Source: a virus
DNA: 15,767 nt
IMG/VR virus record: IMGVR_UViG_3300045988_125934
Reading direction: 5' to 3' (one strand)
Positions 1-15,767 of this stretch are shown one piece after another. How positions within the stretch are numbered: the first letter of the stretch is position 1; each line of letters opens with the position of its first letter. The notes beneath the pieces are model-generated. The model did not search any database and was not told where the DNA came from. It was given only the letters and a program-made list of their open reading frames with translations. The position numbers and the translations under genes are program-made.

Positions 1-177
1 TTAAAAAAGTATAGTCAAATACCCCAACGATTTTACATGTCAAAATTAACACCATAAAACTAACCTCCATTTCCTTACACAAATAATACTCCCATAAAAC
101 AATACAAAATCAAGAACAAAAATTAACACCAAAATGAACACCGTTCACCTGGCCCACCAAGCACCACCACTCTCTAT

Positions 178-284
178 CACAACACAAACCACCACACCAA
201 AACTCACCCCACCTCAACACACCAAAACACATACCACGCAATCACACACCAACAAACACAGCACAAAACAAACCACACCCAAAC
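178..284. repeat. C+A-only tract on the + strand, with about 3 G in about 130 nt. It contains degenerate iterons CAC(A)CC(A)AAAC at about 178, 193, 218, 245 and 274. The mirrored copy at 15484-15590 is G+T-only on the + strand.
   Basis: Counted bases. G occurs only in acgca (about 238) and cagca (about 261) between 162 and 290. Repeats cacaccaaaac at 193-203 and 218-228, cacaccaacaaac at 245-257, cacacccaaac at 274-284. Confidence 0.8.
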
Positions 285-339
285 TTTCCAATTATTCATA
301 ACGAAAATACCTCCATAAAAACAAGCAATAAATAAAGCA

Positions 340-370
340 CTATTAATTATAGCTAATATCGGATATAATG
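340..370 (+). promoter_or_regulatory. Inward-facing early promoter candidate. The -10 is TATAAT at 364-369 and the -35 is weak and AT-rich. It drives the 74-aa gene through a leader conserved at both genome ends.
   Basis: Perfect TATAAT 29 nt upstream of the RBS gggggaaag and the ATG at 399. The same element (TACAAT) and leader are mirrored at the right end. Confidence 0.4.
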
Positions 371-398
371 AAACTACCACATAAGGAAAGGGGGAAAG

Positions 399-623
399 AT
401 GAAACAGTATACAGTGGCTTATATCAAGAATGGTGAAGAGTATGCGTATGATAATTATATGGTAGGCGCTACTATTTCCGAAATTCTCGAAGTACTCACC
501 TGGGAGTTTAACCGTTACGGCGTAGACTATGACGAGATCGCTATATGCGAAATGGATAGCGATGAGCCTACTGTCTATTATGAGGTAGTAGAGATCGATG
601 GCAAGTATCAATTAGAAGCATAG
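399..623 (+). CDS. Early small protein of 74 aa. It is strongly acidic (about 17 D/E against 5 K/R). Function unknown.
   Basis: ORF with RBS aaggaaagggggaaag upstream of the ATG. It is the first gene after the left-end promoter. Confidence 0.6.
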   Translation: MKQYTVAYIKNGEEYAYDNYMVGATISEILEVLTWEFNRYGVDYDEIAICEMDSDEPTVYYEVVEIDGKYQLEA

Positions 624-633
624 GGAGGAAATC

Positions 634-798
634 ATGTGCGTCTTAAAAGCAATGGGTGAACGTATCAGTAACGGGGAACTTGAAAAGCATGTAATCTTTA
701 TTATCGCACCAACCATTAATGAATGTTTCGAAGAATTAGTTAAGTATAAAAGCACAAGCGATTTATATATCAAAGTTGATAGTATCTACTTACCTTAG
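634..798 (+). CDS. Early small protein of 54 aa. Function unknown.
   Basis: ATG at 634 preceded by GGGAGG with a 6-nt spacer. It ends at TAG 796-798, directly followed by the next RBS. Confidence 0.5.
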   Translation: MCVLKAMGERISNGELEKHVIFIIAPTINECFEELVKYKSTSDLYIKVDSIYLP

Positions 799-807
799 GA
801 GGAAAAG

Positions 808-990
808 ATGAAAGAGTGTAGAATTGACTACACAATTTAGGGTCACTATTGCGATTCATATTTATCTGTAGAAATTAAAACATCCAATAACGTGAAAATA
901 CCAGAGGAAGCATTTAATAAAGCTATAATGACCGCAATGAACTACTTACTCGAAAACCTAGAAACAATCGACCAGGAAGAGCCCGCATAG
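808..990 (+). pseudogene. Sixty-codon reading frame split by a single in-frame TAG at 838-840. This gives a 10-codon ORF (MKECRIDYTI), then 49 more open codons in the same frame that end 10 nt before the terminator.
   Basis: AGGAGG lies 5 nt upstream of the ATG at 808. The frame 841-990 has no stops and no independent RBS or start. Confidence 0.35.
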
Positions 991-1000
991 GGCTCTTTTT
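977..1000 (+). terminator. Rho-independent terminator: aagagccc-gcata-gggctctt followed by TTTT. It ends the plus-strand left-end module. The TAA stop of the minus-strand ATPase gene lies inside its T-run, so it may act in both directions.
   Basis: An 8-bp GC-rich stem with a 5-nt loop and a T-run on the plus strand. It sits at the junction of convergent transcription. Confidence 0.7.
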
Positions 1001-2054
1001 ATCTCAAGTTCAGCAGTTTACACATCTTAAAATAATTCTCACGCAATACAGGGCTTTCGAACCGTACTACCCCGTTAAGATATAATCTTTTCAACGTGCG
1101 TATAAATTCACGAGAATTTTCTACCGCTATCATGTTTAAGTCATAATCATCAATAGTTAACGCAATAACTTGTTTATCAGACGGTACTTTATCATTAATG
1201 AAATAAATGAAACTACTCTCATCATACCAACAAGCGAAAACATAATCGTTAAACTTAAACCCGTACCTATATTTCGCCGTCGAGGGCTTTTTAGCTATGA
1301 ATTTGTCGGTTGCATTAGTAAACTTATTGCCTGTAATATAATCGCCGTACTTAGTACCATCAGCAATGGCACCGCCTATAGTATTCAACGATTCGTCTTG
1401 GAAAGCCTCAGGAGGTACATAGTCAATAAGCAATACAATATCGGCACCATCTTTTGTTTTACCCAATTTATATTGAGTGTATCCCTTTTTAGGCTCATTG
1501 CTGATATGCAAAAACCTAAACAGCGGGTTTACGATATTACAAGAGTTTGTTAACAAGAAAAATGTTACATCCCGCCTTTTACGTGAGATTGTAATAAGCA
1601 ATGACAGAATAGCCCCAACCTCATCAACCAAATAACCAGGCGGTCTATTATTTTCGCGCAAGTATTCATCCCAAACGATATACTTTACTTTCGGAAATGG
1701 TACACCCTTATAATCTTGATAACGTGAAGCTATTAAGAGATAACAGAACGTTCTCCACTCTGGCTTTTCCTTATCCTTAGTTCGTTTTGCAATTTGATAT
1801 TCAGACCCTACAAGTCTAAAAACATAATCCTTGAACTCTGCATCGGTTGCCACATCTGAAAACACGTACTTTTTAACAGCCTTTAATTCTGGCTCGTAAC
1901 GCCTGATATAAACGCATTCCTCACCGTGTTTGATAAACCGCTTAACACAATGCTTAAGCGTGGTGTATGTTTTTCCGATAGAACGGGCACCTGCCACCAT
2001 TACAATGTTTGCATTGTACGAAAGTGCCTTATTTATGTTCCAATACTTAGCCAT
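999..2054 (-). CDS. DNA packaging ATPase, a phi29 gp16 homologue of 351 aa.
   Basis: Walker A GARSIGKT. Strong resemblance to phi29 gp16 as recalled from memory (LSY...GARGIGKSY...RFIKYGE...YVRRYKPEL and VFDEFIRE). It is the last gene of the late array, as in phi29. Confidence 0.9.
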   Translation of the reverse strand: MAKYWNINKALSYNANIVMVAGARSIGKTYTTLKHCVKRFIKHGEECVYIRRYEPELKAVKKYVFSDVATDAEFKDYVFRLVGSEYQIAKRTKDKEKPEWRTFCYLLIASRYQDYKGVPFPKVKYIVWDEYLRENNRPPGYLVDEVGAILSLLITISRKRRDVTFFLLTNSCNIVNPLFRFLHISNEPKKGYTQYKLGKTKDGADIVLLIDYVPPEAFQDESLNTIGGAIADGTKYGDYITGNKFTNATDKFIAKKPSTAKYRYGFKFNDYVFACWYDESSFIYFINDKVPSDKQVIALTIDDYDLNMIAVENSREFIRTLKRLYLNGVVRFESPVLRENYFKMCKLLNLR

Positions 2055-2057
2055 AGT

Positions 2058-3326
2058 CTATATATTAACATACCGCCTTATCTGCCAACTATTCCAGTTG
2101 TAATTGCCCGCGCAATAAGCATTTGCATCTTCTCGTAATTTCGGACCCTGTCCCGAACCATGTCCTATGCATTGGTTATTGCCTATATACATTTCTACGT
2201 GAGTTGTATTAGAGCCGTAGCCAAAAATAATCAAATCGGCAGGCTGCATCTTATCCTCTGGTAGATTACCACCACTGCCCGTTGCTATCTGTTGCCCCTG
2301 TTCAGCTTGCGCACCTGTCCAGGTACCAATCTCAAGACTACAAACTTTTTGGTAGCAATACCAGCAAAACCCGCTACAGTCGGTATAACCCGATGTTTCA
2401 GGTGATAATCGCCCAGCGCCCTGGCTATACTGAAACTTTCCTAAACAACTTTTTGCAAACTCTACTAATTGTTGCTGTGCTTCGGTGCCTGTAGCATTAC
2501 CGCCGCCCGTGTTTCCACCTGTAATTGCTTCACCTGTATTGTTAAGTGAGGGCTTCCAGGTCTGAGGCGAAACAGGGACACATATAAGCCCGTTTTCGAG
2601 CCCATCGGTGCCATATATTGTAAGCGTATTATTATAAAGTGTTATATGAGATATAACATTCGCTAATTCTTGGGTTCCGCTATTCTCTCCGCCCTCTCCT
2701 GTACCCGCGCCGCCGTTTTGCCCGAAATCAGGCGGCATGCTCTCACCGTCCCATTCGTTCAAACGATTGTAAACGGTAGTATAGCGGTTGCGATATTGCC
2801 CCAATACTCCGTTATTAAGGCATACCTGATAAATTCTATCAAGAGTAGCACTACCCCCCGCCGTTGTCACTACTTTGCCAGCGCTTCTCGGGCTTTGATG
2901 GTACATGCTCATCGCAAAAATTAAGGGCTTGGGGTTATCTTGCGACAACCCCCACCCCTCAAGCGTTGATATATACCCCTCAAAATCAGTTATCGCCTGG
3001 TTTTCTTGCACGATATGTGATTCAGTCGAGGCGAAAGCGTTTGAAACACTTTCGCCCTCCGTCTGATTTAGATATCGTGCGTTCCAATAGCCGCTATTTT
3101 GATCGTTGCTTGATAACGAACTCTTCAAGCTATCAGCCAACATTTCAAAATCAGTCGGGCGCTCTGATTGCATACGGTTTAGCAATGCAGCGGCGCGGGT
3201 GCCGTACCATTGCATCATGCCAATAGTAATTGGATCGTTATAATTAACGGATTGCCAATTCCAATTACTTTCTACTTCACCTATTACATACATGGCATAG
3301 TAGCATATTGTTCTTGTATCAGGCAT
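2058..3326 (-). CDS. Tail-associated peptidoglycan hydrolase, gp13-like (422 aa). The N-terminal domain is lysozyme-like (IC...ES...WQ...GxGxxQW pattern as in phi29 gp13). Two Gly-rich linkers follow. The C-terminal domain is NlpC/P60 or CHAP-type with a Cys/His pair (DCSGF...H).
   Basis: Motif similarity to the phi29 gp13 N-terminal domain. C-terminal SGYTDCSGFCWY...THVEMYIGNNQCIGHGSG. The gene sits immediately upstream of the ATPase gene. Confidence 0.75.
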   Translation of the reverse strand: MPDTRTICYYAMYVIGEVESNWNWQSVNYNDPITIGMMQWYGTRAAALLNRMQSERPTDFEMLADSLKSSLSSNDQNSGYWNARYLNQTEGESVSNAFASTESHIVQENQAITDFEGYISTLEGWGLSQDNPKPLIFAMSMYHQSPRSAGKVVTTAGGSATLDRIYQVCLNNGVLGQYRNRYTTVYNRLNEWDGESMPPDFGQNGGAGTGEGGENSGTQELANVISHITLYNNTLTIYGTDGLENGLICVPVSPQTWKPSLNNTGEAITGGNTGGGNATGTEAQQQLVEFAKSCLGKFQYSQGAGRLSPETSGYTDCSGFCWYCYQKVCSLEIGTWTGAQAEQGQQIATGSGGNLPEDKMQPADLIIFGYGSNTTHVEMYIGNNQCIGHGSGQGPKLREDANAYCAGNYNWNSWQIRRYVNI

Positions 3327-4108
3327 TATTTATCACTAATAGGGCTCAAGTTTAAGTCTTTAACTGTTAACAGCGGTTGCATGAACGATATATTAAATGC
3401 ACCGCTAACTGTGAATTGTTGGTCTGATGACGGATACAAATAAAATTTTCCATCAGTCCCGAGAACAACCCCTTGCGTACCGAAAAAATTATATCCACTA
3501 CCATCTTTAAATGCGATAGCTACACTATTGTATTCGATAGCAGTTGTTGTTGGTATTACTAGGTCGGTTATGAATTGGAAGCCATACATAGTAGTTCCTG
3601 GTATAGTTTGGCGGGTGGCATTTCCAGTATGAGTTATTGACCCAGCCAGTTTAATTAGCGATTTATCGGGGTTGTAAAATATGTAAATAGATTGACCGGA
3701 ATTTACTGAAAAACCGCTAAATTGAGTTACTTTTTCAACACTAAAATTAAAAAGTGAGGATAGGTAATTTTTAGTGCGGGATAAATCGCTATTAGTAGAT
3801 TGTAAGCCACTTTGAAGCGTGCCGATATTGTTATTAGCAGTCTGCAAACCAGATTGCAATGTAGAAATGTCACCGTTTGCAGTTCTCATCTGTGATTGCA
3901 GCGTAGTAATCTGTGTTCCTTGCGAACCTGTTAAAGTCTGCAAAGCGCTAATCTGACCCTGCATCTCTGTAATGTTTTCTGTTGGCACAAGTCCCGCAAC
4001 CTGTGCAAGTGCTGCATCGGTTGCATTTGCGAGTGCGTTATAGTCGGTTACTAGATCGAAAAGCGCCGTGTTTTCAAGCGTTGGCAATGAATAGTTAGTA
4101 GTAGCCAT
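3326..4108 (-). CDS. Tail fibre or receptor-binding protein of about 260 aa. It has five 14-residue coiled-coil repeats (...ISTLQSGLQTANNN / IGTLQSGLQSTNSD...) and a C-terminal beta-rich knob.
   Basis: ATG at 4108 preceded by GAGGAGG with a 9-nt spacer. The ORF-track start at 4141 has no RBS. Heptad-type repeats are visible in the protein and as DNA repeats around 3800-3960. Confidence 0.6.
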   Translation of the reverse strand: MATTNYSLPTLENTALFDLVTDYNALANATDAALAQVAGLVPTENITEMQGQISALQTLTGSQGTQITTLQSQMRTANGDISTLQSGLQTANNNIGTLQSGLQSTNSDLSRTKNYLSSLFNFSVEKVTQFSGFSVNSGQSIYIFYNPDKSLIKLAGSITHTGNATRQTIPGTTMYGFQFITDLVIPTTTAIEYNSVAIAFKDGSGYNFFGTQGVVLGTDGKFYLYPSSDQQFTVSGAFNISFMQPLLTVKDLNLSPISDK

Positions 4109-4112
4109 TGTT

Positions 4113-4769
4113 TTAATCCTCCTCAATATAGGCAAGTGCACCGTACTTCTTTAAATCGGCCCAGGTATGAATAGTCTTGGGGGTTGACGGTGTATATATT
4201 GTATCATCAATCGTGTAGGGCTTGCACCGCGCTAGTACTTGCTCAAAGTTGCCAAAATCAATCAAATCAAGCAGCACCGCAGAATAAATTGCAAGCTGGT
4301 ATAGTGTCCAATCATGCAAAGCAGTAGTCACTTGCGAATAGGTCATCTCACCGTATTTAGTCTTAAATTCAGCGTAAGTTGCCGCGTAAGGCCGCGCCAC
4401 ATTAAACAATTGTTTATTAATATAAGGGGCGTAGCGTTTATTACCATCGACCACAGGGGACAACCACATACTAATACCGGCATAGATGTTAGTAATGCGT
4501 TCATCCAGTTCTTCGTAGTTTTCCGCTATCTGATTTTTCAAAACGTTATATAACGCGTCGGCATATTCTTTAGCTTGCTCTAAATTATCAGCTAGCCCCT
4601 CATCAAGAATAGATTGAGAAATTGCTTCATCGTTTATTTTTAGAATCGCCTGCAAAAGCCACTGAATCTGATCTTCGAGACGAATTGCGTACTTCCAACT
4701 TGGCGGCAAGGGATACTGGTATCCCTGATACGCAAAATCAAAGTCGCTCGGATAATTAAGCATGCTCAT
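4113..4769 (-). CDS. Structural or neck protein of unknown function, 218 aa. It could be a lower-collar/tail-tube protein or a fibre assembly protein.
   Basis: ORF within the co-linear late array, with RBS AAGGAGG 10 nt upstream of the ATG. Confidence 0.55.
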   Translation of the reverse strand: MSMLNYPSDFDFAYQGYQYPLPPSWKYAIRLEDQIQWLLQAILKINDEAISQSILDEGLADNLEQAKEYADALYNVLKNQIAENYEELDERITNIYAGISMWLSPVVDGNKRYAPYINKQLFNVARPYAATYAEFKTKYGEMTYSQVTTALHDWTLYQLAIYSAVLLDLIDFGNFEQVLARCKPYTIDDTIYTPSTPKTIHTWADLKKYGALAYIEED

Positions 4770-4788
4770 TTTTGCGATACCTCCTTTA

Positions 4789-5367
4789 CTAATATACCTG
4801 TATAAAGCACGGTTCTAAGACGCCGAAAACTATTTGTAGTGCATTGTTCACACCTGATAGCCACTCACTTAACGCCGTTGATACCATGTTATTAATACCA
4901 TAATGCGTTGCTTCAGTAGTAGCGTTATTGGTGTTAGTACCTGTCGATTGTGTAACGTTGGTGGCGTAATTTTCGCCGCCGTCCTCATACAATCTATTTT
5001 GCGGTGTGTTAGAAAAAATCTGTTCGCTTTCGTTTCCTGCATTGTTGGTTGTGGTCGATTTATCGCCCGTCATATAAGACAACCAGGTTTCGTCTTGCGC
5101 CGCTTTTTCAAGCGCAATAAAAACGGGATTGATAGCGGACATGTTTTCGTCTAATGTGCGGTTTAAGAAAAATACAAATTGTGTTGACGTTTGGGCGCTT
5201 ATTTTTCTATAACGAAAATGATTGATAATTTTTTCATTCAACCATTCGCGCTTGTTTTCATCCCAGATTGGATAATCTTGCATACCCAAATCATAGCCGT
5301 ACAATCTTAATACACTGTCGAGGTCGGGCGTTTCATAGTAATTATCATAACTACCAGCTACTAACAT
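4789..5367 (-). CDS. Structural protein of unknown function, about 192 aa. It could be a lower-collar or tail protein.
   Basis: ATG at 5367 preceded by GAGGGGTGG. It starts 1 nt after the connector stop. Confidence 0.5.
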   Translation of the reverse strand: MLVAGSYDNYYETPDLDSVLRLYGYDLGMQDYPIWDENKREWLNEKIINHFRYRKISAQTSTQFVFFLNRTLDENMSAINPVFIALEKAAQDETWLSYMTGDKSTTTNNAGNESEQIFSNTPQNRLYEDGGENYATNVTQSTGTNTNNATTEATHYGINNMVSTALSEWLSGVNNALQIVFGVLEPCFIQVY

Positions 5368-5368
5368 T

Positions 5369-6367
5369 TTATAACCACCCCTCATTTCCCGTTAAGGTTG
5401 GGTAACGCGCGTCGTCTGGTTCTGCCATATGGGGCACCGCCCACGATACACTAATAGGCTTCTCCAGCTCAAAGGTTCTATTAGCTTCTTCACAAAAGCG
5501 TTCGCGACACATTAAACGAGAACGGCGCAAAAGCATAATTTGCTCATTGTTGCTCATTGCTTCTTTTGTTTGCACGCGTTCGCGCTTTTCAGTGTTGGAA
5601 TTATCCGCACCGAAAATGGTCATTGCCAGGTCAAGAATTTTCTTTTGGTTATTAAAAATATCTTCCGCAATGTAGGGTGCTTGCGTCTGCATAACCTCAG
5701 GCATTCCCGCGCCTGGTGCGTCATTTACATATAATACCTGGTCATTACGCTCAAGCTTAGAATATAACTCCTGGTTTGACTTTAGAGCCTGCTCCGTTGT
5801 GCGCATAATATAGGGCGTGCGTTGCGCGCCCGTGTTGAGATCGGCTATAGCGTCATACTTTGCCAAACGACGAGCGAAATACTTAATATGAGAATTGAGC
5901 GGGGTACGGCGCATGTTGTCGAACCCTACTACACAATCGCGAGGGCGATACGTTATTTCTTCCCCCTCTCCTGCGATTCCCCAGGGCTGATTGTGTCTAA
6001 TCCAGGTACGCCCTACAGGGCTTACTAGGGTCACTTCGTTTGGGTTGTAATAAAGATTGTACGTGTCAACGGGCGTACACTGTGCAAACAAAAAACCGCC
6101 ACTTTCCTGAAACAGGCCGCCCATTCCCCAATTCAAAAAGATAAATTCTAATGCGCGGGGGTCAATTCCAGCGGGTAAGTTTTCCCACTTAAAAGCTGCA
6201 AGGGCGATATTACTTAAATAATCTTCCCAGAACATGAACGCCTGGTTATCGTAGTATTCATATTTATTGGAATACTTTTCGCGTATCCAATTGCGCCCTA
6301 TTGCCATATCTGATAGCGGAATAGGGTAGTCCGTCGGGTACTCTCCAGGTTTTAATTGTTTAGTCAT
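5369..6367 (-). CDS. Head-tail connector (portal), a phi29 gp10 homologue of about 332 aa.
   Basis: Matches to phi29 gp10 as recalled from memory: FKWENLPAGIDP against FEWENLPPTINP, GAQRTPYIMR against NAQKTPVLIR, MTIFGADNSNTEKRERVQTKEAMSNNEQI against [29 protein letters not shown]. ATG at 6367 with a GGGGG RBS. Confidence 0.9.
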   Translation of the reverse strand: MTKQLKPGEYPTDYPIPLSDMAIGRNWIREKYSNKYEYYDNQAFMFWEDYLSNIALAAFKWENLPAGIDPRALEFIFLNWGMGGLFQESGGFLFAQCTPVDTYNLYYNPNEVTLVSPVGRTWIRHNQPWGIAGEGEEITYRPRDCVVGFDNMRRTPLNSHIKYFARRLAKYDAIADLNTGAQRTPYIMRTTEQALKSNQELYSKLERNDQVLYVNDAPGAGMPEVMQTQAPYIAEDIFNNQKKILDLAMTIFGADNSNTEKRERVQTKEAMSNNEQIMLLRRSRLMCRERFCEEANRTFELEKPISVSWAVPHMAEPDDARYPTLTGNEGWL

Positions 6368-8426
6368 ACAATACACCCCCTAACGGTTCATTATCTGCAA
6401 TATCTATATTACCAATTTTCGTGGCATCTCTCCACACGGTAACGCCTTTTTCAAAAATACCTCGTAGCGTTTCTTTTGCGCCCTCGTCGGCTTTCGAGCA
6501 GTTGAGATACACCTCTTTACATTGCCAATAGGTAAAGTTTTCCATGCAGTTAAGATTATCAGGCAAGGCCATAAACTCGTGTATTGCGTATCCGTAGCGA
6601 AGAAAATACTCACCGACAACGTGTTGCATATTGCTATTGATATTTTTGAAACGAATCGCAATTTCGAAAATTCCGTTACATAAATTAAAGCCGTCGCCTC
6701 CTTGCTGTCCAATAACGCTAGGCTGTGACAAGGCCATATCTTGAACGGTTGCATTAATTCCGGCGATTGCATTCTGGTAGTCTCCTTGCGCCGCCCACTG
6801 TGCAAGGTCGGCGTTTTGTGTTGCGAAGCCTGATTGTAAGGCCTGGTTATTATTGAACTGTTCGTTTGCCGCCCAATAGTCAACTCCAGCACCGACTAAT
6901 CCCATGACCGCGCCGCCATAGTTTCCGCCTGCAAGATTGCCCACGGTGCCCAATGCAGCGTTTGCAATTCTGCTTGCGTTTTGAACATCCATGTTTGCTT
7001 GATTATTAGCCAACTGTTGCTGTGCTTGGCTATAACTTAGTTGTGTATTCGCGTTTGACTTGTTAAGTGCCCAACCAGCACCGCTATATTGCCAATTGCG
7101 AGTATTTACTGTTGTCGCCTGATAAAGAATGTAATTGTCGTTAACGATGCTAAACGTTGGCAAATTGTTAAACCATAGGGCATTGTCTATATAATTTTCG
7201 GGGCGATAGGTGCCCTCTCGTCTTGGATTGGTGTCATCCAAAACAAAATAATAGTATTCTTCGTCACTTGGCAAGTTGCCATTAACTCCTACATCACTAC
7301 CATAGTAAGGCACATAAAACGCAAGTCTCATATAAGGCGGTGCAGCACATGCAACTTGTCGCAAGGCTAGCGCGTTTTCATTGGTTAATTCAGGTTTTAA
7401 CAATAAAGGGCTACCAGTATAATTGGTTAGTTCAATTACTGAATACGGATAACATAACAACTTTTTTAGGTTTTTATAGCGATTATTTATAGATTGCCCT
7501 AGCCTATCAGCTAGTGAGCGTCTGTCACTCCAAAACTCCCCCTCATCGGGCGTGGTGCCTAAAAATCTTGCGTTTACACCGTTTAATTGCACATAGGGGC
7601 CATCTGTGAGAAATGCCTTTGGAAAAAGCGTGACAGATAAAATCGTACGGGCTACCCAAGGTGCCTCGCGCAACCGTTCGCACAAAATCTTATAATCATC
7701 TGAGCTTAATTCGTAGACGTTGCACGATGAAATAATACCATCGGTAAATTGCCCATCTGATGTTCTAAAAGAGGGATTAGTAACAGTGCCCCAATCGGCG
7801 GCAAGGTCGCCCGTTGATTGGACAATCAACGAAAGACCGTTTAAGTTTTCCGATCCTTCCGACCGGTTAATCGATAAATTAAGTACTTGCACATCCGATA
7901 TATTGTATTCGTTGCCAATATCAAGCGATTCTGGCACAGAGCAATACCGCCGCCATGTATAGGGTGCGTTATTGTTTGCAACGTTGCAACTTGCCTGTAT
8001 AGCAGCGTGACCACGCACTACAAACGCTTGACTTATTCGAAAATTGAATAAATACGTTTGAAACACATCTAATTGTAACGTGATAGCCGTAGTAGACGGA
8101 TTAACCATAGCAACGCTTGTTATAAAGTAATACAGTTTTGGTGGTGTTAATTCACCCGGCACGGGCTGTTCAGGGTTTTCAACAACGCAATAATTATAGG
8201 TATAGGCTGCACTATACGGCAGTCCTAAATTGATTGGTTCGTTAGGTTTTAAGTATGAATAATTTTCAAGAATTAACGAATCACTATTAAGTGACGCGAA
8301 ATAGTTATCCCTCGCTTCTTGGTCGGCAAACGATACTACATCTTTATATGACGAGTCCCACGTCACGCGGCAGAGCGTAACGCGGGACTGTGCTGACCAT
8401 GAAGAGGGCGTGAATGCGGTTTTCAT
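6360..8426 (-). CDS. Tail knob or distal tail protein, a phi29 gp9 homologue of 688 aa. It has a Gly-rich, probably membrane-active loop (NLAGGNYGGAVMGLVGAGV).
   Basis: LQLDVFQTYLFNFRISQAFVVRGHA against phi29 gp9 [25 protein letters not shown] (from memory). C-terminal similarity and a Gly-rich loop that also occurs in gp9. GGGGG RBS. Confidence 0.8.
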   Translation of the reverse strand: MKTAFTPSSWSAQSRVTLCRVTWDSSYKDVVSFADQEARDNYFASLNSDSLILENYSYLKPNEPINLGLPYSAAYTYNYCVVENPEQPVPGELTPPKLYYFITSVAMVNPSTTAITLQLDVFQTYLFNFRISQAFVVRGHAAIQASCNVANNNAPYTWRRYCSVPESLDIGNEYNISDVQVLNLSINRSEGSENLNGLSLIVQSTGDLAADWGTVTNPSFRTSDGQFTDGIISSCNVYELSSDDYKILCERLREAPWVARTILSVTLFPKAFLTDGPYVQLNGVNARFLGTTPDEGEFWSDRRSLADRLGQSINNRYKNLKKLLCYPYSVIELTNYTGSPLLLKPELTNENALALRQVACAAPPYMRLAFYVPYYGSDVGVNGNLPSDEEYYYFVLDDTNPRREGTYRPENYIDNALWFNNLPTFSIVNDNYILYQATTVNTRNWQYSGAGWALNKSNANTQLSYSQAQQQLANNQANMDVQNASRIANAALGTVGNLAGGNYGGAVMGLVGAGVDYWAANEQFNNNQALQSGFATQNADLAQWAAQGDYQNAIAGINATVQDMALSQPSVIGQQGGDGFNLCNGIFEIAIRFKNINSNMQHVVGEYFLRYGYAIHEFMALPDNLNCMENFTYWQCKEVYLNCSKADEGAKETLRGIFEKGVTVWRDATKIGNIDIADNEPLGGVLYD

Positions 8427-8444
8427 TTTACCCCCTTAATAATT

Positions 8445-9833: not shown

Positions 9834-10126
9834 TAGTCCTCCTTTAACAAATTCTCTTTAACTTTGTCTTCAATAGTTAATTCTTCGTCTTCCTCTGGGT
9901 CTTCCTCTTCCTCGGTCTTACCAGTTTCAGCCATGATTAGTTCGTAATTTTTGGCTTTTAAGTCGGTGTTTTCACGACGCAATTCTTCTATTTCCTGGTT
10001 ACGCTGTTCAATCAATGCTACTTGACCATCGTTATATGATGTAAACGCATCATTGATATTTGATAGATAGGCTGGGTAGTCCTCAATCTCATCTGTGATA
10101 CCCGCTAGCAGCTCGAAAATGTCCAC
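9833..10126 (-). CDS. Scaffolding protein, phi29 gp7-like, about 97 aa, acidic with a coiled-coil. The probable start is GTG at 10126, not the ORF-track start at 10267.
   Basis: AGGAGG lies 8 nt upstream of the GTG. Sequence EIEELRRENTDLKAKNYEL with an EEEEDPEEDEE tail. Its TAATG stop-start overlaps the MCP gene. phi29 gp7 is 98 aa. Confidence 0.65.
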   Translation of the reverse strand: MDIFELLAGITDEIEDYPAYLSNINDAFTSYNDGQVALIEQRNQEIEELRRENTDLKAKNYELIMAETGKTEEEEDPEEDEELTIEDKVKENLLKED

Positions 10127-10140
10127 TTGTTTACCTCCTA

Positions 10141-11491: not shown

Positions 11492-11493
11492 AT

Positions 11494-13200
11494 TTACCCC
11501 CTTATAGTAAACGGTCTTTCCTCAAGTATAACCCCGCCCTTAACTAGCTTAGGCACCAATTTATAACATTCTTTTGATAAGTATTTTTTATCGAAGCTAT
11601 TCATATCATGAATAAGTTTAATGTCATTAGTAAAACCTATCTTAAAATCATCAAAGTTCATTACATCTTTTAACCCTTGCGGCATACCTGCGCAGGTGTA
11701 ACTATAATCACCATTATCAAGCTGCACTGCATACGTTTTAGGCCTGATAAAACGGCACTTCTTGAAACGGTATTCGCAATCAAAATATCCCAATTTCTTT
11801 GGGTCTGTTTCTAACCAATCGGGCACATCGCCAAAAGCTTTTATGCTGTCGGTATCGCTGTATATATAATTATCGCCAAACTTTACGGCGGTTCTTATTA
11901 AATAGTCGCGCGCGTAAGCGGTAACAAACGATGCAATAGGGATATATACAGGGTCGCGGTCATCACCGTCTACCAGCTTGTAATGAACCGCATCATCTTC
12001 TAAAACGGGTATTTTCTTGCTTCCCTGTATCTTTTGCCCGAACTTACCATACAGCGAATTATTGCACAATTTCGCTTGAAACCGTTCCCCAGGATTGGTT
12101 GCGTGCGTCTTATTGTAGTTATTTATATCTATATAATCATCAAATAGCCCGTATTGACTACTGAACTTATAAGCGCCCAAAAAGTCGATTATATTCAGGT
12201 CATACATATCACGCATAAGTTCCAAATCTACACTAGTAAACCATCCTATCAAGGGCTCCGTAATGTTTCTCTGATACTCTCTAGGATTGAACTTAGGATT
12301 GTCTTTAATCTGTATACAGGGCAAACAACCAGGCTTTAATTTTGCGGTGTATTCAATACAGGCAACAAAAAGCCCGCCCAATTCTTTTTCGTTCATAACA
12401 AATTCAGGCAACCCATAGGGATATGACTTATAGCGCATCTGGTAGGGATACATGCTATTTACATCTAGCGATACACCGTCTTTAATATAAGTCTTGTTTT
12501 GATGTATCGGATTAACGTAGACGTATCCGCCCCTATAAGACTTGCGTATATCGTGGTCGGCTCTTTTTGGTAACATCGGAAACAATTTATTGAACTTCTT
12601 TCGTTCGATTAAATCTTTATAGACCGCTAAACAATCCGCCGACGTGGTGAGTTTCGTTCCCATTTTAAGACGTTGTTCTAAAACTTGCGCTAATATACAA
12701 ACATCACGCCGCAAGTAGTCCAATTCTTGCACGGTCAATTCATGCCCAGATGGTCGGTAAAGACTATAGTCTATTTCGCCTTTTGACATATTAAGATGAT
12801 AGGTATTGGCTGCTTCTGCAAGGGACATAGTTACTTTTTTAAGGCTGTCGGCAAAAACTATTTCCTTATCCATCGCGCGAAACTTAATTGAATAGAACCG
12901 TCCCATATCATCAATGAGCGTGCTTAGTTGCATATTGTCATTTATCTGATCAACGTGCTTAAAATCGTGCCTTAGCAGATAGTCGATTATAAATTTTCCA
13001 TCAAATGCCAAATTATGAAACCATATGCGGGCCTTATTAAAATTTAGAATTGTGTCTATAAAACTTTCGATTGATACCCCGTAAATAAAACTATTGTTAT
13101 CTCCTACTAGGCACAAGCCCCAAGCCCATACAGGGTTTTTCGCAACTCCCTCTTCGGTTGTGTTGGTTTCAAAGTCGGCTGCGTACTCTGCATAATCCAT
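11494..13200 (-). CDS. Protein-primed family-B DNA polymerase, phi29 gp2-like, 568 aa.
   Basis: Motifs Exo I YAADFETNT, Exo II NLAFDGKFI, Exo III YLRRDVCILA, Pol A DVNSMYP, Pol B KLCNNSLYGKFGQ, Pol C YSDTDS and KxY RPKTYAVQ. Size matches phi29 DNAP (575 aa). Confidence 0.95.
   Translation of the reverse strand: MDYAEYAADFETNTTEEGVAKNPVWAWGLCLVGDNNSFIYGVSIESFIDTILNFNKARIWFHNLAFDGKFIIDYLLRHDFKHVDQINDNMQLSTLIDDMGRFYSIKFRAMDKEIVFADSLKKVTMSLAEAANTYHLNMSKGEIDYSLYRPSGHELTVQELDYLRRDVCILAQVLEQRLKMGTKLTTSADCLAVYKDLIERKKFNKLFPMLPKRADHDIRKSYRGGYVYVNPIHQNKTYIKDGVSLDVNSMYPYQMRYKSYPYGLPEFVMNEKELGGLFVACIEYTAKLKPGCLPCIQIKDNPKFNPREYQRNITEPLIGWFTSVDLELMRDMYDLNIIDFLGAYKFSSQYGLFDDYIDINNYNKTHATNPGERFQAKLCNNSLYGKFGQKIQGSKKIPVLEDDAVHYKLVDGDDRDPVYIPIASFVTAYARDYLIRTAVKFGDNYIYSDTDSIKAFGDVPDWLETDPKKLGYFDCEYRFKKCRFIRPKTYAVQLDNGDYSYTCAGMPQGLKDVMNFDDFKIGFTNDIKLIHDMNSFDKKYLSKECYKLVPKLVKGGVILEERPFTIRG
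11560..11568 (-). promoter_or_regulatory. Candidate extended -10 promoter (TGtTATAAA) inside the 3' end of the polymerase gene, about 70 nt upstream of the holin ATG.
   Basis: Reverse complement of 11560-11568 is tgttataaa. No convincing -35 was found. Confidence 0.2.
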
Positions 13201-13204
13201 GATG

Positions 13205-14059
13205 CTATATATTCTTGACGATCTTCAGCATAGACCATACAACGTCATAATTATCGCCTTTGGTTTCCTCGGCAACGCTAGAATGCCCCTTGTCATAGTC
13301 TTGCTGATAGCGATAAACCGCCGTCAATGCATCAAAATCGGTATAGTGATAAAGGTAATATATTTGGTCATCATTTAAGTTATTTAATATGTTGGCTAAT
13401 TCCTCGGTTAAATAGCCTTCATCGCTTAAACGATTAGTAACTGATTCTATATAACCCCTGTTCTGTTTCGTTAAGGCTTCATCTGTTTTAGGAGCATTTT
13501 TAACAGAACGGTTGTAAGCTTTAATAGCATTTTCTAACTGCTCTAATGACTTAAAAGGGGTATTACGCGGTTCTACTTGTGCCACTAGATTTTCTGCACC
13601 GCCGCGCCCAAAATCTTCTCGGCTAATCTTTTCTGGTAAATTCTTAGTGATCGATTCAATGGCTGCTACTACGTCATCGGGCTTGTTTAGTTCCACATTT
13701 TCCTTAATTTTTTCAAGCCTTGCACGGCGTCCTGCCCTGATTATATTTCTCTCTGCTTCTACAATGCGGTATTCAAAAACTTTTTCATAAGGTAGAGCGA
13801 TATTACTGTTACGTTGCAATACGTAATTAAGCGACTTACCCTGTGTCTCAATTCGATTTTCACGAGAATTAAATTCTCGCAATTGTCGTGCATAGGCGTT
13901 CTGTTCACGAACACTCATACTCTGCACTTCTTCCCAACTTTTAACAGGCACCGTCATTTGATTTATTTGAGCGTTCGTGATTCCTTTTTTACGTAGGCGG
14001 TATAGCTTGTTACGCGCGTTTTTCTGCAATCGTGATAATTCTTTTTTGGTAATAGCCAT
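13205..14059 (-). CDS. Putative terminal protein (replication primer), about 284 aa. The start is probably the ATG at 14059 (MAITKKELSRLQKN...).
   Basis: Immediately upstream of and co-directional with the protein-primed polymerase, as TP genes are in phi29-like phages. Lys/Arg/Glu-rich. The ORF-track N-terminal 20 codons run through a GC-rich hairpin and have no RBS. Confidence 0.6.
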   Translation of the reverse strand: MAITKKELSRLQKNARNKLYRLRKKGITNAQINQMTVPVKSWEEVQSMSVREQNAYARQLREFNSRENRIETQGKSLNYVLQRNSNIALPYEKVFEYRIVEAERNIIRAGRRARLEKIKENVELNKPDDVVAAIESITKNLPEKISREDFGRGGAENLVAQVEPRNTPFKSLEQLENAIKAYNRSVKNAPKTDEALTKQNRGYIESVTNRLSDEGYLTEELANILNNLNDDQIYYLYHYTDFDALTAVYRYQQDYDKGHSSVAEETKGDNYDVVWSMLKIVKNI

Positions 14060-14141: not shown

Positions 14142-14588
14142 TTACATATCCAAATAGCGATAAGTTCGACCGTTGCGCGTTGAACGTGTTTTGGTCACTA
14201 CCTTAATTGGATGTTCCCATGTCTTAGGCATTCCATAAGAGTTAATAAGTGCCTTTACTGATTCGTATACACCCAATGATGCGGAAAAATAGCACTCTCC
14301 CTCTTGATCGATAAGGATAACGGCGGGATTGTCTGTCTTTTCGCCCTCTTCGTCACCACCGATAAAAGAAGAAGTGGTGAATGCGATGTCTACAATGTCA
14401 ATATAAGTTCCGTCCATATCAGACAGGGGCGCGGCGGTATTCTGCGCCTTGAATAAACGGCGCTTATCCTCATCGGTTTCAACGTCGAAAGAGGTCACAA
14501 TGCCGTAAGCCTTTACGCCTGTTCGGATTGATTCATCAAACGAAAGAGTTTCATTAGTTTCACGAATGAGTGCGAGTGATTCAGCCAT
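14142..14588 (-). CDS. p5-like single-stranded DNA-binding protein, 148 aa, acidic.
   Basis: Resemblance to phi29 p5 as recalled from memory: TSFDVETDEDKRRLFKAQNT...DGTYIDI against ATFDTETLEGQIKIFNAQTG...DGTIIEA, and IDQEGECYFSAS against FAADGSLYSAIS. RBS AAAGGAGAA. It lies two genes upstream of TP, as p5 does. Confidence 0.5.
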   Translation of the reverse strand: MAESLALIRETNETLSFDESIRTGVKAYGIVTSFDVETDEDKRRLFKAQNTAAPLSDMDGTYIDIVDIAFTTSSFIGGDEEGEKTDNPAVILIDQEGECYFSASLGVYESVKALINSYGMPKTWEHPIKVVTKTRSTRNGRTYRYLDM

Positions 14589-15179: not shown

Positions 15180-15368
15180 TTACAAAGACCAATTAGCACT
15201 CAAAGCTTCAAAACCATAGTACGGGCATGCACCACCTCTAAAATACACCCATAAACAACGTTTACCTTTATAATACCCAGAACTAACTTTTACTGAATAA
15301 AATTTACCATGCCTCAAACCCATAGAACCATCTTCACCAATAAACATAGCGTCAATTACCTTAGTCAT
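15180..15368 (-). CDS. First right-end early protein, 62 aa, basic and Gly/Tyr-rich, function unknown.
   Basis: The ATG at 15368 is preceded by the conserved leader and RBS (aaaggggaaaag) that are shared with the left-end first gene. Confidence 0.55.
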   Translation of the reverse strand: MTKVIDAMFIGEDGSMGLRHGKFYSVKVSSGYYKGKRCLWVYFRGGACPYYGFEALSANWSL

Positions 15369-15398
15369 CTTTTCCCCTTTCCCTTATGTGGTAGTTTC

Positions 15399-15430
15399 AT
15401 TGTAGTCGATCTTGGCTATAATTAATAGGG
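15399..15430 (-). promoter_or_regulatory. Inward-facing early promoter candidate at the right end. The -10 is TACAAT, the reverse complement of 15399-15404. It would drive the early operon from the 62-aa gene through to the DNA polymerase gene.
   Basis: Mirror of the left promoter. The leader aatgaaactaccacataagggaaaggggaaaagATG matches the left leader. Confidence 0.4.
15417..15422 (+). promoter_or_regulatory. Outward-facing -10-like TATAAT within gctataattaata, conserved at both ends (the left copy is the reverse complement of 346-351). It points toward the genome terminus and sits upstream of the ITR RBS and mini-ORF.
   Basis: Perfect TATAAT 30 nt upstream of GGAGGT (15453-15458). No good -35 was found. 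Confidence 0.25.
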
Positions 15431-15468
15431 TCAATTTTATTACTTGTTTTTATGGAGGTATTTTCGTT

Positions 15469-15564
15469 ATGAATAATTGGAAAGTTTGGGTGTGGTTTGT
15501 TTTGTGCTGTGTTTGTTGGTGTGTGATTGCGTGGTATGTGTTTTGGTGTGTTGAGGTGGGGTGA
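15469..15564 (+). CDS. ITR-embedded 31-codon ORF (MNNWKVWVWFVLCCVCWCVIAWYVFWCVEVG) reading outward. An identical copy lies on the minus strand at 204-299. It may be a compositional artefact of the G+T-only strand.
   Basis: ATG at 15469 is preceded by GGAGGT with a 9-nt spacer. The frame stays open through the GT-rich tract and ends at TGA 15562-15564. Confidence 0.2.
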   Translation: MNNWKVWVWFVLCCVCWCVIAWYVFWCVEVG

Positions 15565-15767
15565 GTTTTGGTGTGGTGGTTTGTGTTGTGATAGAGAGTG
15601 GTGGTGCTTGGTGGGCCAGGTGAACGGTGTTCATTTTGGTGTTAATTTTTGTTCTTGATTTTGTATTGTTTTATGGGAGTATTATTTGTGTAAGGAAATG
15701 GAGGTTAGTTTTATGGTGTTAATTTTGACATGTAAAATCGTTGGGGTATTTGACTATACTTTTTTAA

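What the first reader, a model, noticed from the sequence alone, without database searches (positions are those of the whole stretch)
1..398. A complete phi29-like genome with 325-bp perfect ITRs (about 395 bp including imperfect extension), far longer than in the family
phi29-group phages whose proteins resemble these (DNAP, gp16, gp10, gp9, gp13, p5) have 6-8-bp ITRs. Long ITRs of hundreds of bp are reported for Cp-1-type phages, not for close phi29 relatives. The homology does not stop at the perfect repeat. After a roughly 15-bp diverged patch it resumes (tattaattatagc, then aatgaaactaccacataagg-aaagggg-aaag) right up to the ATG of the first gene at each end. Both ends therefore carry the same inward promoter, leader and RBS fused to different first genes (74-aa acidic protein on the left, 62-aa basic protein on the right). 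At 15.8 kb it is also smaller than typical Salasmaviridae genomes (18-27 kb).
Basis: partly seen in the sequence, partly recalled or inferred. Interest (0 to 1): 0.6.

Follow-up and report, generated by a model that had tools for sequence, protein, structure and literature searches.

The report
Long ITRs of a gut phi29-like phage
The window is a nearly complete linear genome of an uncultured human-gut phage distantly related to phi29; its 325-nt (about 400-nt with the imperfect part) inverted terminal repeats are real and shared by its whole clade, but repeats this long are already known in other phi29-like phages, so the main claim is ordinary, while the contents of the repeat (a tiny conserved gene and swappable first genes) are mildly new.

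Summary
Window 1-325 is the exact reverse complement of 15443-15767, and homology continues imperfectly to the two start codons (397 nt at 96%). It is not an assembly artefact. An independent ENA contig equals window 326-15442 exactly. More than 10 related human-gut contigs carry 280-512-nt ITRs of the same architecture.

This is not a close phi29 relative: DNAP is 35% identical to phi29 and at most 38.6% to any deposited phage. ITRs of hundreds of nt are already annotated in phi29-like phages: Cp-1 236, Mycoplasma P1 350, asccphi28 577. The last two have promoters inside the ITR. A 15.8-kb genome is ordinary for gut phi29-like phages.

The ITR is best read as a composite telomere of a protein-primed genome. 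It has a conserved terminal box, variable A/C-rich iteron and tandem-repeat arrays (about 4% G on the 5' strand), and back-to-back -10 boxes. One box, with a shared leader, faces the first inward gene at each end.

Two things are new. An outward-facing 31-codon ORF inside each ITR shows coding-type conservation. The ITR-adjacent first genes sit at opposite ends in different relatives, which implies exchange between ends. Terminal-protein linkage and the exact termini remain untested; the window probably lacks about 3-6 nt per end.

The parts
1..325 (.). Left ITR, perfect part (mirror of 15443-15767).
   Evidence: The independent contig L027 begins at 326.
15443..15767 (.). Right ITR, perfect part.
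326..398 (+). Left imperfect ITR extension. It holds the diverged patch 326-340, the promoter-like region, the leader and the SD sequence up to ATG 399.
   Evidence: All 14 differences between the arms lie here. The two arms carry two different 'alleles' of this region, and both alleles also occur in relatives.
15370..15442 (-). Right imperfect ITR extension (the same elements, with -10 TACAAT).
17..29 (+). Conserved terminal box AAATACCCCAACG, a candidate core of the replication origin (mirror 15739-15751).
   Evidence: Conserved in L009, L011, L014, L052 and L053, always 13-22 nt from the contig end. A comparable C-tract lies 9-25 nt from the ends of phi29, Cp-1, Av-1 and asccphi28.
42..142 (+). 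Iteron-like motif AAAATKAACACC at 42-53, 119-130 and 131-142 (mirrors 15626-15726). The palindrome TGAACaccGTTCA lies at 135-147.
   Evidence: Six matches, all inside the ITRs, against 0.02 expected. TRF finds 12-nt arrays. Copy number is 0-6 in relatives, and the palindrome is present in 0-2 copies.
64..95 (+). Module CCTCCATTTCCTTACACAAATAATACTCCCAT, present in 1-4 tandem copies in relatives. On the outward strand it reads as a -10-like plus SD-like sequence.
   Evidence: L016 has 4 copies with a 64-nt period and L003 has 2. Function is unresolved.
148..300 (+). Extremely A/C-rich, G-depleted stretch with 15-nt and 25-nt imperfect tandem repeats. Its inner part is the antisense of the micro-ORF.
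   Evidence: There are 11 G in positions 41-340. GC skew is -0.71 to -0.90.
204..299 (-). Outward-facing micro-ORF of 31 codons plus stop: MNNWKVWVWFVLCCVCWCVIAWYVFWCVEVG. The SD sequence GGAGG is at 314-310.
15469..15564 (+). Second, identical copy of the micro-ORF in the right ITR.
   Evidence: Mirror of 204-299. It ends at 15564, as in the ORF listing.
346..351 (-). Outward -10 box (TATAAT on the bottom strand), upstream of the micro-ORF.
   Evidence: Read from the sequence. Conserved in 13 of 15 arms, with 1-nt variants in the other two. The sigma-70 consensus scan did not call it because it has no good -35.
364..369 (+). Inward -10 box TATAAT (right arm: TACAAT at 15399-15404, minus strand).
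   Evidence: Conserved in relatives at both ends. Not called by the consensus scan.
385..394 (+). Shared Shine-Dalgarno leader GGAAAGGGGG, ahead of ATG 399.
399..623 (+). First gene at the left (gp16) end: 74 aa, acidic. It belongs to a mobile cassette family.
   Evidence: Homologues sit at the opposite end in L001 and L050.
15180..15368 (-). First gene at the right (early) end: 62 aa, basic. It belongs to a mobile cassette family.
   Evidence: An 89%-identical homologue sits at the opposite end in L014.
977..997 (+). Terminator hairpin ending the short left-end operon, next to the gp16 stop codon.
   Evidence: The stem shows compensatory changes in relatives.
11494..13200 (-). Protein-primed type-B DNA polymerase.
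   Evidence: PF03175, E = 3e-60. Aligns end to end with phi29 DNAP at 35% identity, with the Exo and Pol motifs conserved.
13205..14059 (-). Candidate terminal protein (284 aa from the ATG), assigned by position only.
   Evidence: It lies between the SSB and DNAP genes, as in phi29, Cp-1 and Av-1. It has no family or structure hit. It has 183 homologues; the 120 listed are all 284 aa and 85-93% identical.
14142..14588 (-). phi29-type SSB.
   Evidence: PF17427.
999..2054 (-). gp16-type packaging ATPase.
   Evidence: PF05894, E = 3e-46.

Best explanation
The window is the near-complete linear genome of an uncultured human-gut phi29-like podophage that replicates by protein priming. Its 325-nt perfect and roughly 400-nt total ITRs are the genome's two identical telomeres.

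Reading inward from each end, the ITR holds:
1. A conserved terminal box (AAATACCCCAACG, about 20 nt from the end), inferred to be the origin core recognised by the terminal-protein/DNAP complex.
2. A fast-evolving array of A/C-rich iterons and tandem repeats that is almost free of G on the 5'-ended strand. I infer that it binds phage replication or organising proteins and/or keeps the displaced strand unstructured.
3. An outward-facing 31-codon gene for a Trp/Cys/Val-rich hydrophobic peptide, present twice per genome.
4. Two back-to-back -10 boxes 12 bp apart. One faces the micro-gene. The other, with a shared leader and Shine-Dalgarno sequence, faces the first inward gene at that end.

Identity of the two copies is kept by copy-correction or recombination between the ends during strand-displacement replication (inferred). 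The same process moves the ITR boundary and shuttles 'promoter plus first gene' cassettes from one end to the other. The window's imperfect 326-398 segment is the edge of the last such conversion tract.

Shown here: the repeat, its clade-wide conservation, the phi29-like gene set, the coding-type conservation of the micro-ORF, and the placement of the same cassette genes at opposite ends in different relatives.

Inferred: terminal-protein linkage, origin function, promoter activity, protein binding to the iterons, and the conversion mechanism.
For: The ITR is real:
- Searches show the repeat.
- The independent ENA assembly L027 equals window 326-15442. It carries both imperfect inner repeats.
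- Relatives with 91-96% identical MCP have perfect terminal ITRs of 512, 508, 443, 419, 368 and 280 nt with the same module order but different sequence.
- Contig ends of six relatives stop within a 10-nt span, 13-22 nt outside the conserved box.
- Among the 120 listed of 183 homologous TP-candidate proteins, no contig exceeds 15.8 kb. The longest related contig seen is 16.4 kb. This fits physical ends.

The replicon is of the protein-primed type:
- PF03175 DNAP, phi29 SSB, gp16 and phi29-type structural genes.
- Full-length alignment to phi29 DNAP.
- The SSB, candidate TP, DNAP gene order matches Av-1, Cp-1 and phi29.

Precedent for long, promoter-bearing ITRs.

Shared promoter and leader.

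Iterons occur only in the ITR: 6 matches against 0.02 expected.

Micro-ORF:
- 14 alleles are all open for 28-33 codons, with ATG and SD kept and one in-frame codon insertion.
- Nucleotide diversity at codon positions 1, 2 and 3 is 0.11, 0.105 and 0.25.
- Synonymous to non-synonymous counts are 331:154 in frame, against 86:408 and 159:388 in the other two frames.

Cassette exchange:
- The p62 family is at the early end in the window, L005 and L009, but at the gp16 end in L014 (89% identity).
- The p74 family is at the gp16 end in the window but at the early end in L001 and L050.
- The p54 and p82 families are likewise found at either end.
- In L003 the 512-nt ITR runs 27 nt into the coding sequence, giving two ORFs that share MKKYSKQDI and then diverge.
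Against: - No direct evidence exists for a covalently bound terminal protein. The candidate TP has no detectable homology to any known TP.
- The exact termini are unknown, and the window probably lacks a few nt.
- The -10 boxes have no convincing -35 partners, and the consensus scanner did not call them.
- No pRNA was found, although gp16-type motors in phi29 need one.
- Long ORFs are expected by chance in G/T-rich sequence (about 20% chance of 31 open codons by my estimate), so the micro-ORF rests on substitution pattern and SD/ATG conservation in only 14 non-independent alleles.
- Perfect identity of the arms is partly an assembly property.
Confidence: 0.85

Rival explanations
1. The ITR is an assembly artefact: one terminal sequence was wrongly appended to both ends, or the contig is chimeric or palindromic, and the real genome has short or no ITRs.
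For: The two arms end at the same nucleotide and are 100% identical over 325 nt, as expected when a collapsed repeat unitig is attached twice. One assembly of the same genome (L027) lacks the 325 nt at both ends.
Against: L027 still contains both imperfect inner repeats (window 326-398 and 15370-15442). These differ at 14 positions, so a duplication artefact cannot explain them. At least eight other assemblies from different samples and assemblers show long ITRs with different sequences but the same architecture. The repeat joins two different unique flanks.
Confidence: 0.03
2. The element is not a free linear phage genome. It is a segment bounded by inverted repeats, such as a transposon-like or integrated element, a phage-plasmid, or part of a larger or circular replicon.
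For: Terminal inverted repeats also bound transposons. The review notes that some phi29-related sequences are deposited as plasmids.
Against: A full virion, lysis and replication gene set fills the whole 15.1-kb unique region. No relative was found in 185,579 bacterial and archaeal genomes. Among the listed relatives no contig exceeds about 16.4 kb, and none of those examined at the ends shows flanking host DNA. There is no transposase or integrase.
Confidence: 0.03
3. The long ITR is real, but apart from the terminal origin it is functionally neutral: a slippage-prone spacer copied between the ends. On this view the micro-ORF, iterons and outward -10 box are by-products of biased composition, not functional elements.
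For: The outer ITR is hypervariable in length and repeat content among close relatives. Open frames are expected in G/T-rich sequence. Neither -10 box has a proper -35. phi29 itself manages with a 6-nt ITR.
Against: Frame-specific synonymous excess, conserved ATG and SD, an in-frame indel and conservative replacements in the micro-ORF. The -10, leader and SD block is conserved at both ends in all relatives although the genes behind it differ. The exact 12-nt motif is confined to the ITR.
Confidence: 0.12

Closest known systems
Streptococcus phage Cp-1 (Cepunavirus; 19,343 bp, ITR 236 nt)
   Same: Both are protein-primed phi29-like podophages with an ITR of hundreds of nt. Homology between the Cp-1 ends continues imperfectly to 352 nt at 97.7%. 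Early promoters lie at or next to the inner ITR edge at both ends, and outward-facing promoter boxes are annotated inside the ITR. The gene layout is the same: a long rightward operon plus a few genes converging from the other end. The 5' strand of the ITR is G-poor (6% G).
   Different: DNAP is only 31% and MCP 31% identical. The Cp-1 ITR has no counterpart of the micro-ORF or the iterons. Strand asymmetry is much more extreme here (A+C 79% against 63%).
Lactococcus phage asccphi28 (Salasmaviridae; 18,762 bp, ITR 577 nt)
   Same: Its ITR is even longer. It carries annotated inward promoters (P2 and P7) that serve different first genes at the two ends, and an outward transcription unit (P1 to T1) inside the ITR. 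Homology extends imperfectly beyond the perfect part, to 609 nt at 98.7%.
   Different: It is very distant (DNAP 24% identical). Its gene order differs, with two divergent halves. The outward unit ends in an annotated terminator and has no annotated peptide gene. It has no A/C-rich arrays.
Mycoplasma phage P1 (Delislevirus; 11,660 bp, ITR 350 nt)
   Same: It has a 350-nt perfect ITR with the same promoter annotated inside both copies, driving different first genes (orf1 DNAP and orf11). It has a small genome, and the 5' strand of its ITR is G-poor.
   Different: Similarity is barely detectable. Its structural genes are not recognisably phi29-type in this comparison.
Actinomyces phage Av-1 (Dybvigvirus; 17,171 bp) and Hungatella phage CH17P1 (15,915 bp)
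   Same: These are among the closest deposited relatives by DNAP (38%) and gp9 (29%). Gene order is nearly identical to Av-1: small ORFs, SSB, TP, DNAP, then head, tail, connector and ATPase, with small genes converging from the far end. Av-1 has a 210-nt ITR at 94% identity, with -35 and -10 signals annotated close to its inner edge (206-238 and 16933-16966). CH17P1 has a similar size.
   Different: Identity is only family-level or lower. The Av-1 ITR is imperfect and not strand-skewed. Av-1 has an annotated packaging RNA, and none was found here. The CH17P1 record is partial, with only 55-58 nt of ITR.
Bacillus phage phi29 (Salasvirus)
   Same: It shares the replication and morphogenesis gene set. 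It has a C-rich tract near the 5' end and an outward transcription unit (promoter A1 to pRNA) at about the same distance from the left end as the outward -10 box and micro-ORF here.
   Different: Its ITR is 6 nt. Its early and late operons are divergent. Its outward unit encodes a structured pRNA, whereas the outward RNA here is less structured than shuffled controls (z = +1.34) and shows coding conservation. Protein identity is 21-35%.

Membership tests
phi29-like protein-primed podophages (broad group: Salasmaviridae and allied unclassified genera) | Protein-primed family-B DNA polymerase | tested here: met
   PF03175, E = 3e-60. It aligns over its full length with phi29 DNAP at 35% identity, with ExoI-III, motifs A-C and KxY conserved.
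phi29-like protein-primed podophages (broad group: Salasmaviridae and allied unclassified genera) | Terminal-protein gene next to the DNAP gene | tested here: inconclusive
   A 284-aa ORF sits between the SSB and DNAP genes, as in phi29, Cp-1 and Av-1. It has no hit in Pfam, PHROGs, PDB sequences or the Av-1 TP. The listed homologues are all clade-internal and carry no informative name.
phi29-like protein-primed podophages (broad group: Salasmaviridae and allied unclassified genera) | Linear genome with inverted terminal repeats | tested here: met
   Related contig ends cluster within 10 nt.
phi29-like protein-primed podophages (broad group: Salasmaviridae and allied unclassified genera) | [quoted passage not shown] | not testable with these tools
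   This needs virion DNA: proteinase-K-dependent mobility or exonuclease sensitivity.
phi29-like protein-primed podophages (broad group: Salasmaviridae and allied unclassified genera) | gp16-type packaging ATPase, phi29-type MCP, connector and tail knob | tested here: met
   PF05894, PF25622, PF05352 and PF20934. Adaptor Ad4 by PHROGs.
phi29-like protein-primed podophages (broad group: Salasmaviridae and allied unclassified genera) | Packaging RNA (pRNA) | tested here: inconclusive
   No Rfam hit at E <= 1. The outward ITR RNA is unstructured. Conservation of the gap downstream of gp16 is explained by a plus-strand ORF and a terminator. The Rfam model covers only the Bacillus group, so absence is not shown.
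   No megablast hit to any deposited phage. DNAP is 35%, MCP 28% and gp16 32% identical to phi29.
   Almost all genes lie on one strand, running from the early end. The ITR is 325-397 nt, against 6 nt in phi29.
Long-ITR phi29-like phages (Cp-1, asccphi28, Mycoplasma P1): a descriptive class, not a taxon | ITR of hundreds of nt with promoters at or next to its inner end that serve different first genes at the two ends | tested here: met
   The window has a shared -10, leader and SD block ahead of the 74-aa and 62-aa genes. Promoter activity itself was not tested.
Dybvigvirus (Av-1) or Cepunavirus (Cp-1), genus level | Nucleotide-level genome similarity at genus level (about 70% by current ICTV practice, from my own knowledge) | tested here: not met
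   There is no nucleotide match. Protein identities are 28-38%.

The most novel reading that the evidence does not exclude
In this gut phage clade the ITR is not only a replication origin. It is a gene-bearing, recombining telomere. Each copy encodes an outward-transcribed 31-aa Trp/Cys-rich transmembrane peptide, so there are two gene copies per genome, transcribed toward the DNA end. The ITR also acts as a platform that moves 'promoter plus first early gene' cassettes between the two ends and between co-infecting relatives. The G-free 5' strand with variable iteron arrays is a selected feature of protein-primed ends, since the same polarity of skew is seen more weakly in Cp-1, P1 and phi29.
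Probability: 0.4. Interest if true: 0.55.

Novelty: new member of a known kind. Interest (0 to 1): 0.35.

Why it matters
As first stated (a phi29 relative with unprecedentedly long ITRs) the finding matters little. Long, promoter-bearing ITRs are documented in Cp-1, asccphi28 and P1, and small phi29-like genomes are common in gut metagenomes.

The modest added value is threefold:
- The window represents an abundant, undescribed human-gut lineage: 183 clusters of the TP candidate, with no deposited phage above 39% DNAP identity. Its ends are nearly complete, which is rare for metagenomic protein-primed genomes.
- The many natural variants of its ITR amount to a comparative dissection of a protein-primed telomere, with a conserved terminal box, expendable repeat arrays and a conserved promoter block.
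- The ITR-embedded micro-gene and the end-to-end shuffling of first genes suggest how such phages diversify early (possibly host-takeover or anti-defence) genes. Both can be tested directly with existing metagenomic reads and metatranscriptomes.

Tried and rejected
- pRNA. The Rfam scan of the whole window at E <= 1 found only a chance mir-16 hit. The outward ITR transcript (340 to 1) folds worse than shuffles (z = +1.34). The 200-nt gap downstream of gp16 folds moderately (z = -2.35), but its conservation in relatives is explained by a plus-strand small ORF and a terminator hairpin with compensatory changes. No pRNA candidate was retained.
- Terminal-protein homology. Pfam, PHROGs, PDB sequences and BLASTP against the Av-1 TP were all negative. 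The large protein search returned no named or visibly distant homologue among the 120 listed.
- Micro-peptide homologues. The query is too short for the search for homologous proteins. tblastn against deposited phages found nothing. No analogous outward ORF is evident in the ITRs of Cp-1, asccphi28, Av-1 or P1. phi29 gp0.2 (31 aa, same position) is unrelated in sequence.
- Sigma-70 consensus scan. It did not flag the ITR promoters. They rest on conserved -10 hexamers only.
- Paralogy of the two first genes. None was found.
There was no meaningful hit in deposited phages.
- DNA-pattern scans of IMG/VR. They returned only the same clade plus chance hits (L029 inside a coding region, L043).
- Host or prophage search in 185,579 genomes. 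It found nothing, so the host is unresolved. Bacillota or Clostridia is a guess from the Hungatella phage hit and the GC content.
- Mutational explanation of the skew. I considered that the A/C skew reflects cytosine deamination of the displaced strand. I rejected this because the displaced 5' strand is C-rich and T-poor, the opposite of the expectation.
Full report
**1. Observation.**
Reading the two ends directly shows that window 1-325 equals the reverse complement of 15443-15767 without a mismatch. The first difference is at position 326. After a 15-nt diverged patch (326-340) the homology resumes and runs to the two start codons. The repeat finder reports 397-nt arms at 96%. BLAST of the ends gives 1-402 against 1-403 at 96.5% with one gap. 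The first genes are different and unrelated. On the left is a 74-aa protein of pI 4.05 (399-623, plus strand). On the right is a 62-aa protein of pI 9.26 (15180-15368, minus strand).

**2. Is it an artefact?**
- An independent ENA assembly (L027, 15,117 nt) is identical to window 326-15442. It stops exactly where the perfect repeat begins. That is the behaviour of a graph assembler at a true two-copy repeat. This contig still contains both imperfect inner repeats, which no duplication artefact could create.
- IMG/VR and public metagenomes hold about 25 contigs with 90-96% identical capsid protein, several labelled human gut metagenome. Those that reach the ends have perfect terminal ITRs of 512, 508, 443, 419, 368 and 280 nt. 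They share the module order but differ in sequence.
- Six of these contigs end 13-22 nt outside one conserved box, AAATACCCCAACG.
- Among the listed members of the 183 protein clusters of the gene upstream of DNAP, no contig is longer than 15.8 kb. The longest related contig seen is 16.4 kb.
- Together these points indicate physical DNA ends. The window probably lacks about 3-6 nt per end, because relatives read (GTG)TAG before the window's TT.
- The perfect identity of the arms is partly a property of assembly.

**3. What the genome is.**
- Pfam and PHROGs identify a protein-primed family-B DNAP, a phi29-type SSB, a gp16 packaging ATPase, a connector, adaptor Ad4, the gp9 tail knob, Phi29_MCP, a gp13-like NlpC/P60 protein, an amidase and a holin.
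- The DNAP aligns end to end with phi29 DNAP, but at only 35% identity. MCP is 28% identical.
- There is no nucleotide match to any of 50,697 deposited phages.
- The best DNAP matches reach at most 38.6%: Hungatella phage CH17P1, Actinomyces phage Av-1, actinobacterial phages and a human faecal contig.
- Gene order is that of Av-1 and Cp-1: small ORFs, SSB, X, DNAP, lysis, head, tail, connector and ATPase on one strand, with two or three small genes converging from the other end. It is not that of phi29.
- The phage is therefore a separate, uncultured lineage of phi29-like phages, roughly equidistant from phi29, Av-1 and Cp-1.
- The candidate terminal protein (13205-14059, 284 aa) is assigned by position only. 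No homology method recognised it.

**4. Comparison with known ITRs.**
GenBank annotation gives phi29 6 nt, Cp-1 236 nt, asccphi28 577 nt (classified in Salasmaviridae) and Mycoplasma P1 350 nt. I measured about 210 nt at 94% for Av-1, and imperfect extensions to 352 nt in Cp-1 and 609 nt in asccphi28. asccphi28 and P1 have the same promoter annotated inside both ITR copies, serving different first genes. asccphi28 and Cp-1 also have outward-facing promoter boxes inside the ITR. Hence a long ITR, an imperfect inner extension and a shared inward promoter all have precedents. The 2024 review of phi29-like phages lists many human-metagenome genomes of 12-17 kb (PMC11476376). A Dutch-cohort study notes ITR-bearing Caudoviricetes in 5% of gut vOTUs with terminal repeats (PMC9610469).

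**5. Anatomy of the ITR.** From the end inward:
- (a) Positions 1-16 are variable among relatives.
- (b) Positions 17-29 hold the conserved box AAATACCCCAACG. Comparable C-tracts lie 9-25 nt from the ends of phi29, Cp-1, Av-1 and asccphi28.
- (c) An exact 12-nt motif, AAAATKAACACC, occurs three times per arm and nowhere else (6 matches against 0.02 expected). A palindrome TGAACaccGTTCA lies at 135-147. Relatives carry 0-6 iterons, in 13-nt or 25-nt tandem arrays, and 0-2 palindromes.
- (d) A 32-nt module (64-95) is present in 1-4 tandem copies in relatives.
- (e) A/C-rich 12-, 15- and 25-nt imperfect tandem repeats follow.
- Over 41-340 the 5'-ended strand has 11 G in 300 nt, and GC skew reaches -0.90.
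- The same polarity of skew is present more weakly at the ends of Cp-1, P1, asccphi28 and phi29, but not of Av-1 or CH17P1.

**6. A conserved micro-gene inside the ITR.**
- On the outward strand, a GGAGG (window 314-310) is followed 10 nt later by ATG (299-297) and a 31-codon ORF ending at 204. The product is MNNWKVWVWFVLCCVCWCVIAWYVFWCVEVG (GRAVY 1.36). The mirror copy is 15469-15564.
- All 14 distinct alleles recovered keep the ATG, an SD-like purine run and an open frame of 28-33 codons. One has an in-frame one-codon insertion.
- Nucleotide diversity is 0.11, 0.105 and 0.25 at codon positions 1, 2 and 3. Replacements are conservative: V/A/I, W/Y and F/L.
- Among codon pairs differing at one base, synonymous to non-synonymous counts are 331:154 in this frame, against 86:408 and 159:388 in the other two frames.
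- Open frames are expected in G/T-rich DNA, so openness alone means little. The frame-specific substitution pattern is what argues for a translated gene.
- The outward RNA is less structured than shuffled controls (z = +1.34). It is therefore not a pRNA, although it occupies the position of the phi29 A1-pRNA unit.
- No homologue was found in deposited phages.

**7. Promoter block.**
Upstream of the micro-ORF, a TATAAT on the bottom strand (351 to 346) is conserved in 13 of 15 arms, with 1-nt variants in the other two. Twelve bp away, on the top strand, is TATAAT (364-369; TACAAT on the right arm). It is followed by a conserved leader and the SD sequence GGAAAGGGGG before each first gene. Neither box has a good -35, and the consensus scanner missed both. 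Promoter function is therefore inferred from conservation and position only.

**8. Exchange between ends.** The first gene behind each ITR belongs to a small set of families that occupy either end in different relatives:

| Family | Usual end | Opposite end in |
|---|---|---|
| p62 | early end (window, L005, L009) | L014, gp16 end, 89% identity |
| p74 | gp16 end (window, L005, L009, L003) | L001 and L050, early end |
| p54 | gp16 end (most relatives) | L011, early end |
| p82 | early end (most relatives) | L002, gp16 end |

- The second gene at the early end (88 aa) never moves.
- In L003 the 512-nt ITR extends 27 nt into the coding sequence. The two end genes share MKKYSKQDI and then diverge, and one of them is a chimera with the C-terminal part of the p74 family.
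- The window's two imperfect inner arms correspond to two 'alleles' of the promoter region that both circulate among relatives.
- The simplest reading is recurrent copy-correction or recombination between the two ends, and between co-infecting genomes. This moves the ITR boundary and carries promoter-plus-gene cassettes with it.
- The mechanism (panhandle repair, template switching or homologous recombination) is inferred, not shown.

**9. Verdict.**
The repeat is real, clade-wide and best explained as the telomere of a protein-primed linear genome (confidence about 0.85). The claim of exceptional length within the family is not supported, and the size is ordinary. The ITR's contents are modestly new and testable, but they rest on comparative sequence evidence alone. 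These contents are a duplicated outward micro-gene, ITR-exclusive iterons in variable arrays, extreme G depletion of the 5' strand, and first-gene cassettes that change ends. I rate the finding a new member of a known kind, interest 0.35.

Noticed in passing
window 204-299 (-) and 15469-15564 (+): A conserved 31-codon outward-facing ORF lies inside each ITR. It encodes MNNWKVWVWFVLCCVCWCVIAWYVFWCVEVG, which is hydrophobic and rich in Trp and Cys. It has an SD sequence and shows frame-specific synonymous excess across 14 alleles.
   Followed up: yes
window 399-623 and 15180-15368; loci L001, L002, L003, L011, L014, L050: The first gene behind each ITR belongs to families found at either genome end in different relatives. 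In L003 the ITR runs into the coding sequence and creates a chimeric ORF. This points to ITR-mediated exchange between ends.
   Followed up: yes
window 1-340; L023 (Cp-1), L026 (P1), L024 (asccphi28), L025 (phi29) ends: The 5'-ended strand at the termini is G-poor and C-rich in several protein-primed phages (GC skew -0.3 to -0.6). It is extreme here (-0.7 to -0.9, and also T-poor). This is the same strand polarity as in eukaryotic telomeres. Av-1 and CH17P1 lack it. The cause is unknown, and deamination of the displaced strand would predict the opposite.
   Followed up: partly
window 64-95 and the outward strand from 55 to 1: A repeated module reads, on the outward strand, as a -10-like TATTAT plus GGAGG. 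It is followed by an ATG-initiated frame (MVLILTCKIVGVFDYTFL...) that runs off the assembled end without a stop codon. In L011 the equivalent frame stops 6 nt before the contig end. It may be spurious, because it overlaps the conserved terminal box.
   Followed up: partly
L016 1-250, L003 1-140, L009 46-100, L052 52-140, L060 165-225: The outer ITR behaves like a variable-number tandem-repeat region. Observed arrays are 4 x 64 nt, 2 x 68 nt, 4 x 13 nt, about 4 x 25 nt and 4 x 15 nt in different relatives.
   Followed up: partly
window 977-997: A hairpin followed by a T-run on the plus strand lies next to the gp16 stop codon. It probably terminates the short left-end operon. Relatives show compensatory stem changes: GAGCCC/GGGCTC, GCGCC/GGCGC and GAGTCC/GGACTC.
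   Followed up: partly
window 808-990 (+): Relatives appear to have a third small plus-strand gene here. In the window the frame is broken (a 10-codon ORF from ATG 808, then a 32-aa ORF from GTG 892). This may be a decaying gene.
   Followed up: no
L061 4341-5333 versus window 10329-11132: The endolysin module is swapped within the clade. One relative carries a 330-aa Glyco_hydro_25 lysin where the window has a 267-aa Amidase_2 plus PG_binding_1 lysin.
   Followed up: no
window 13205-14119 (-): The mechanical ORF (304 aa, TTG start) is probably too long. All 120 listed homologues are 284 aa, which matches the ATG at 14059. The family is abundant in Logan and ENA gut assemblies, and no informative source name was seen apart from one misannotation as a V-ATPase subunit.
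   Followed up: partly
whole window: No pRNA was detectable by Rfam or by folding, although a gp16-type ATPase is present. Av-1, with the same layout, has an annotated packaging RNA antisense to its far-end small genes.
   Followed up: partly
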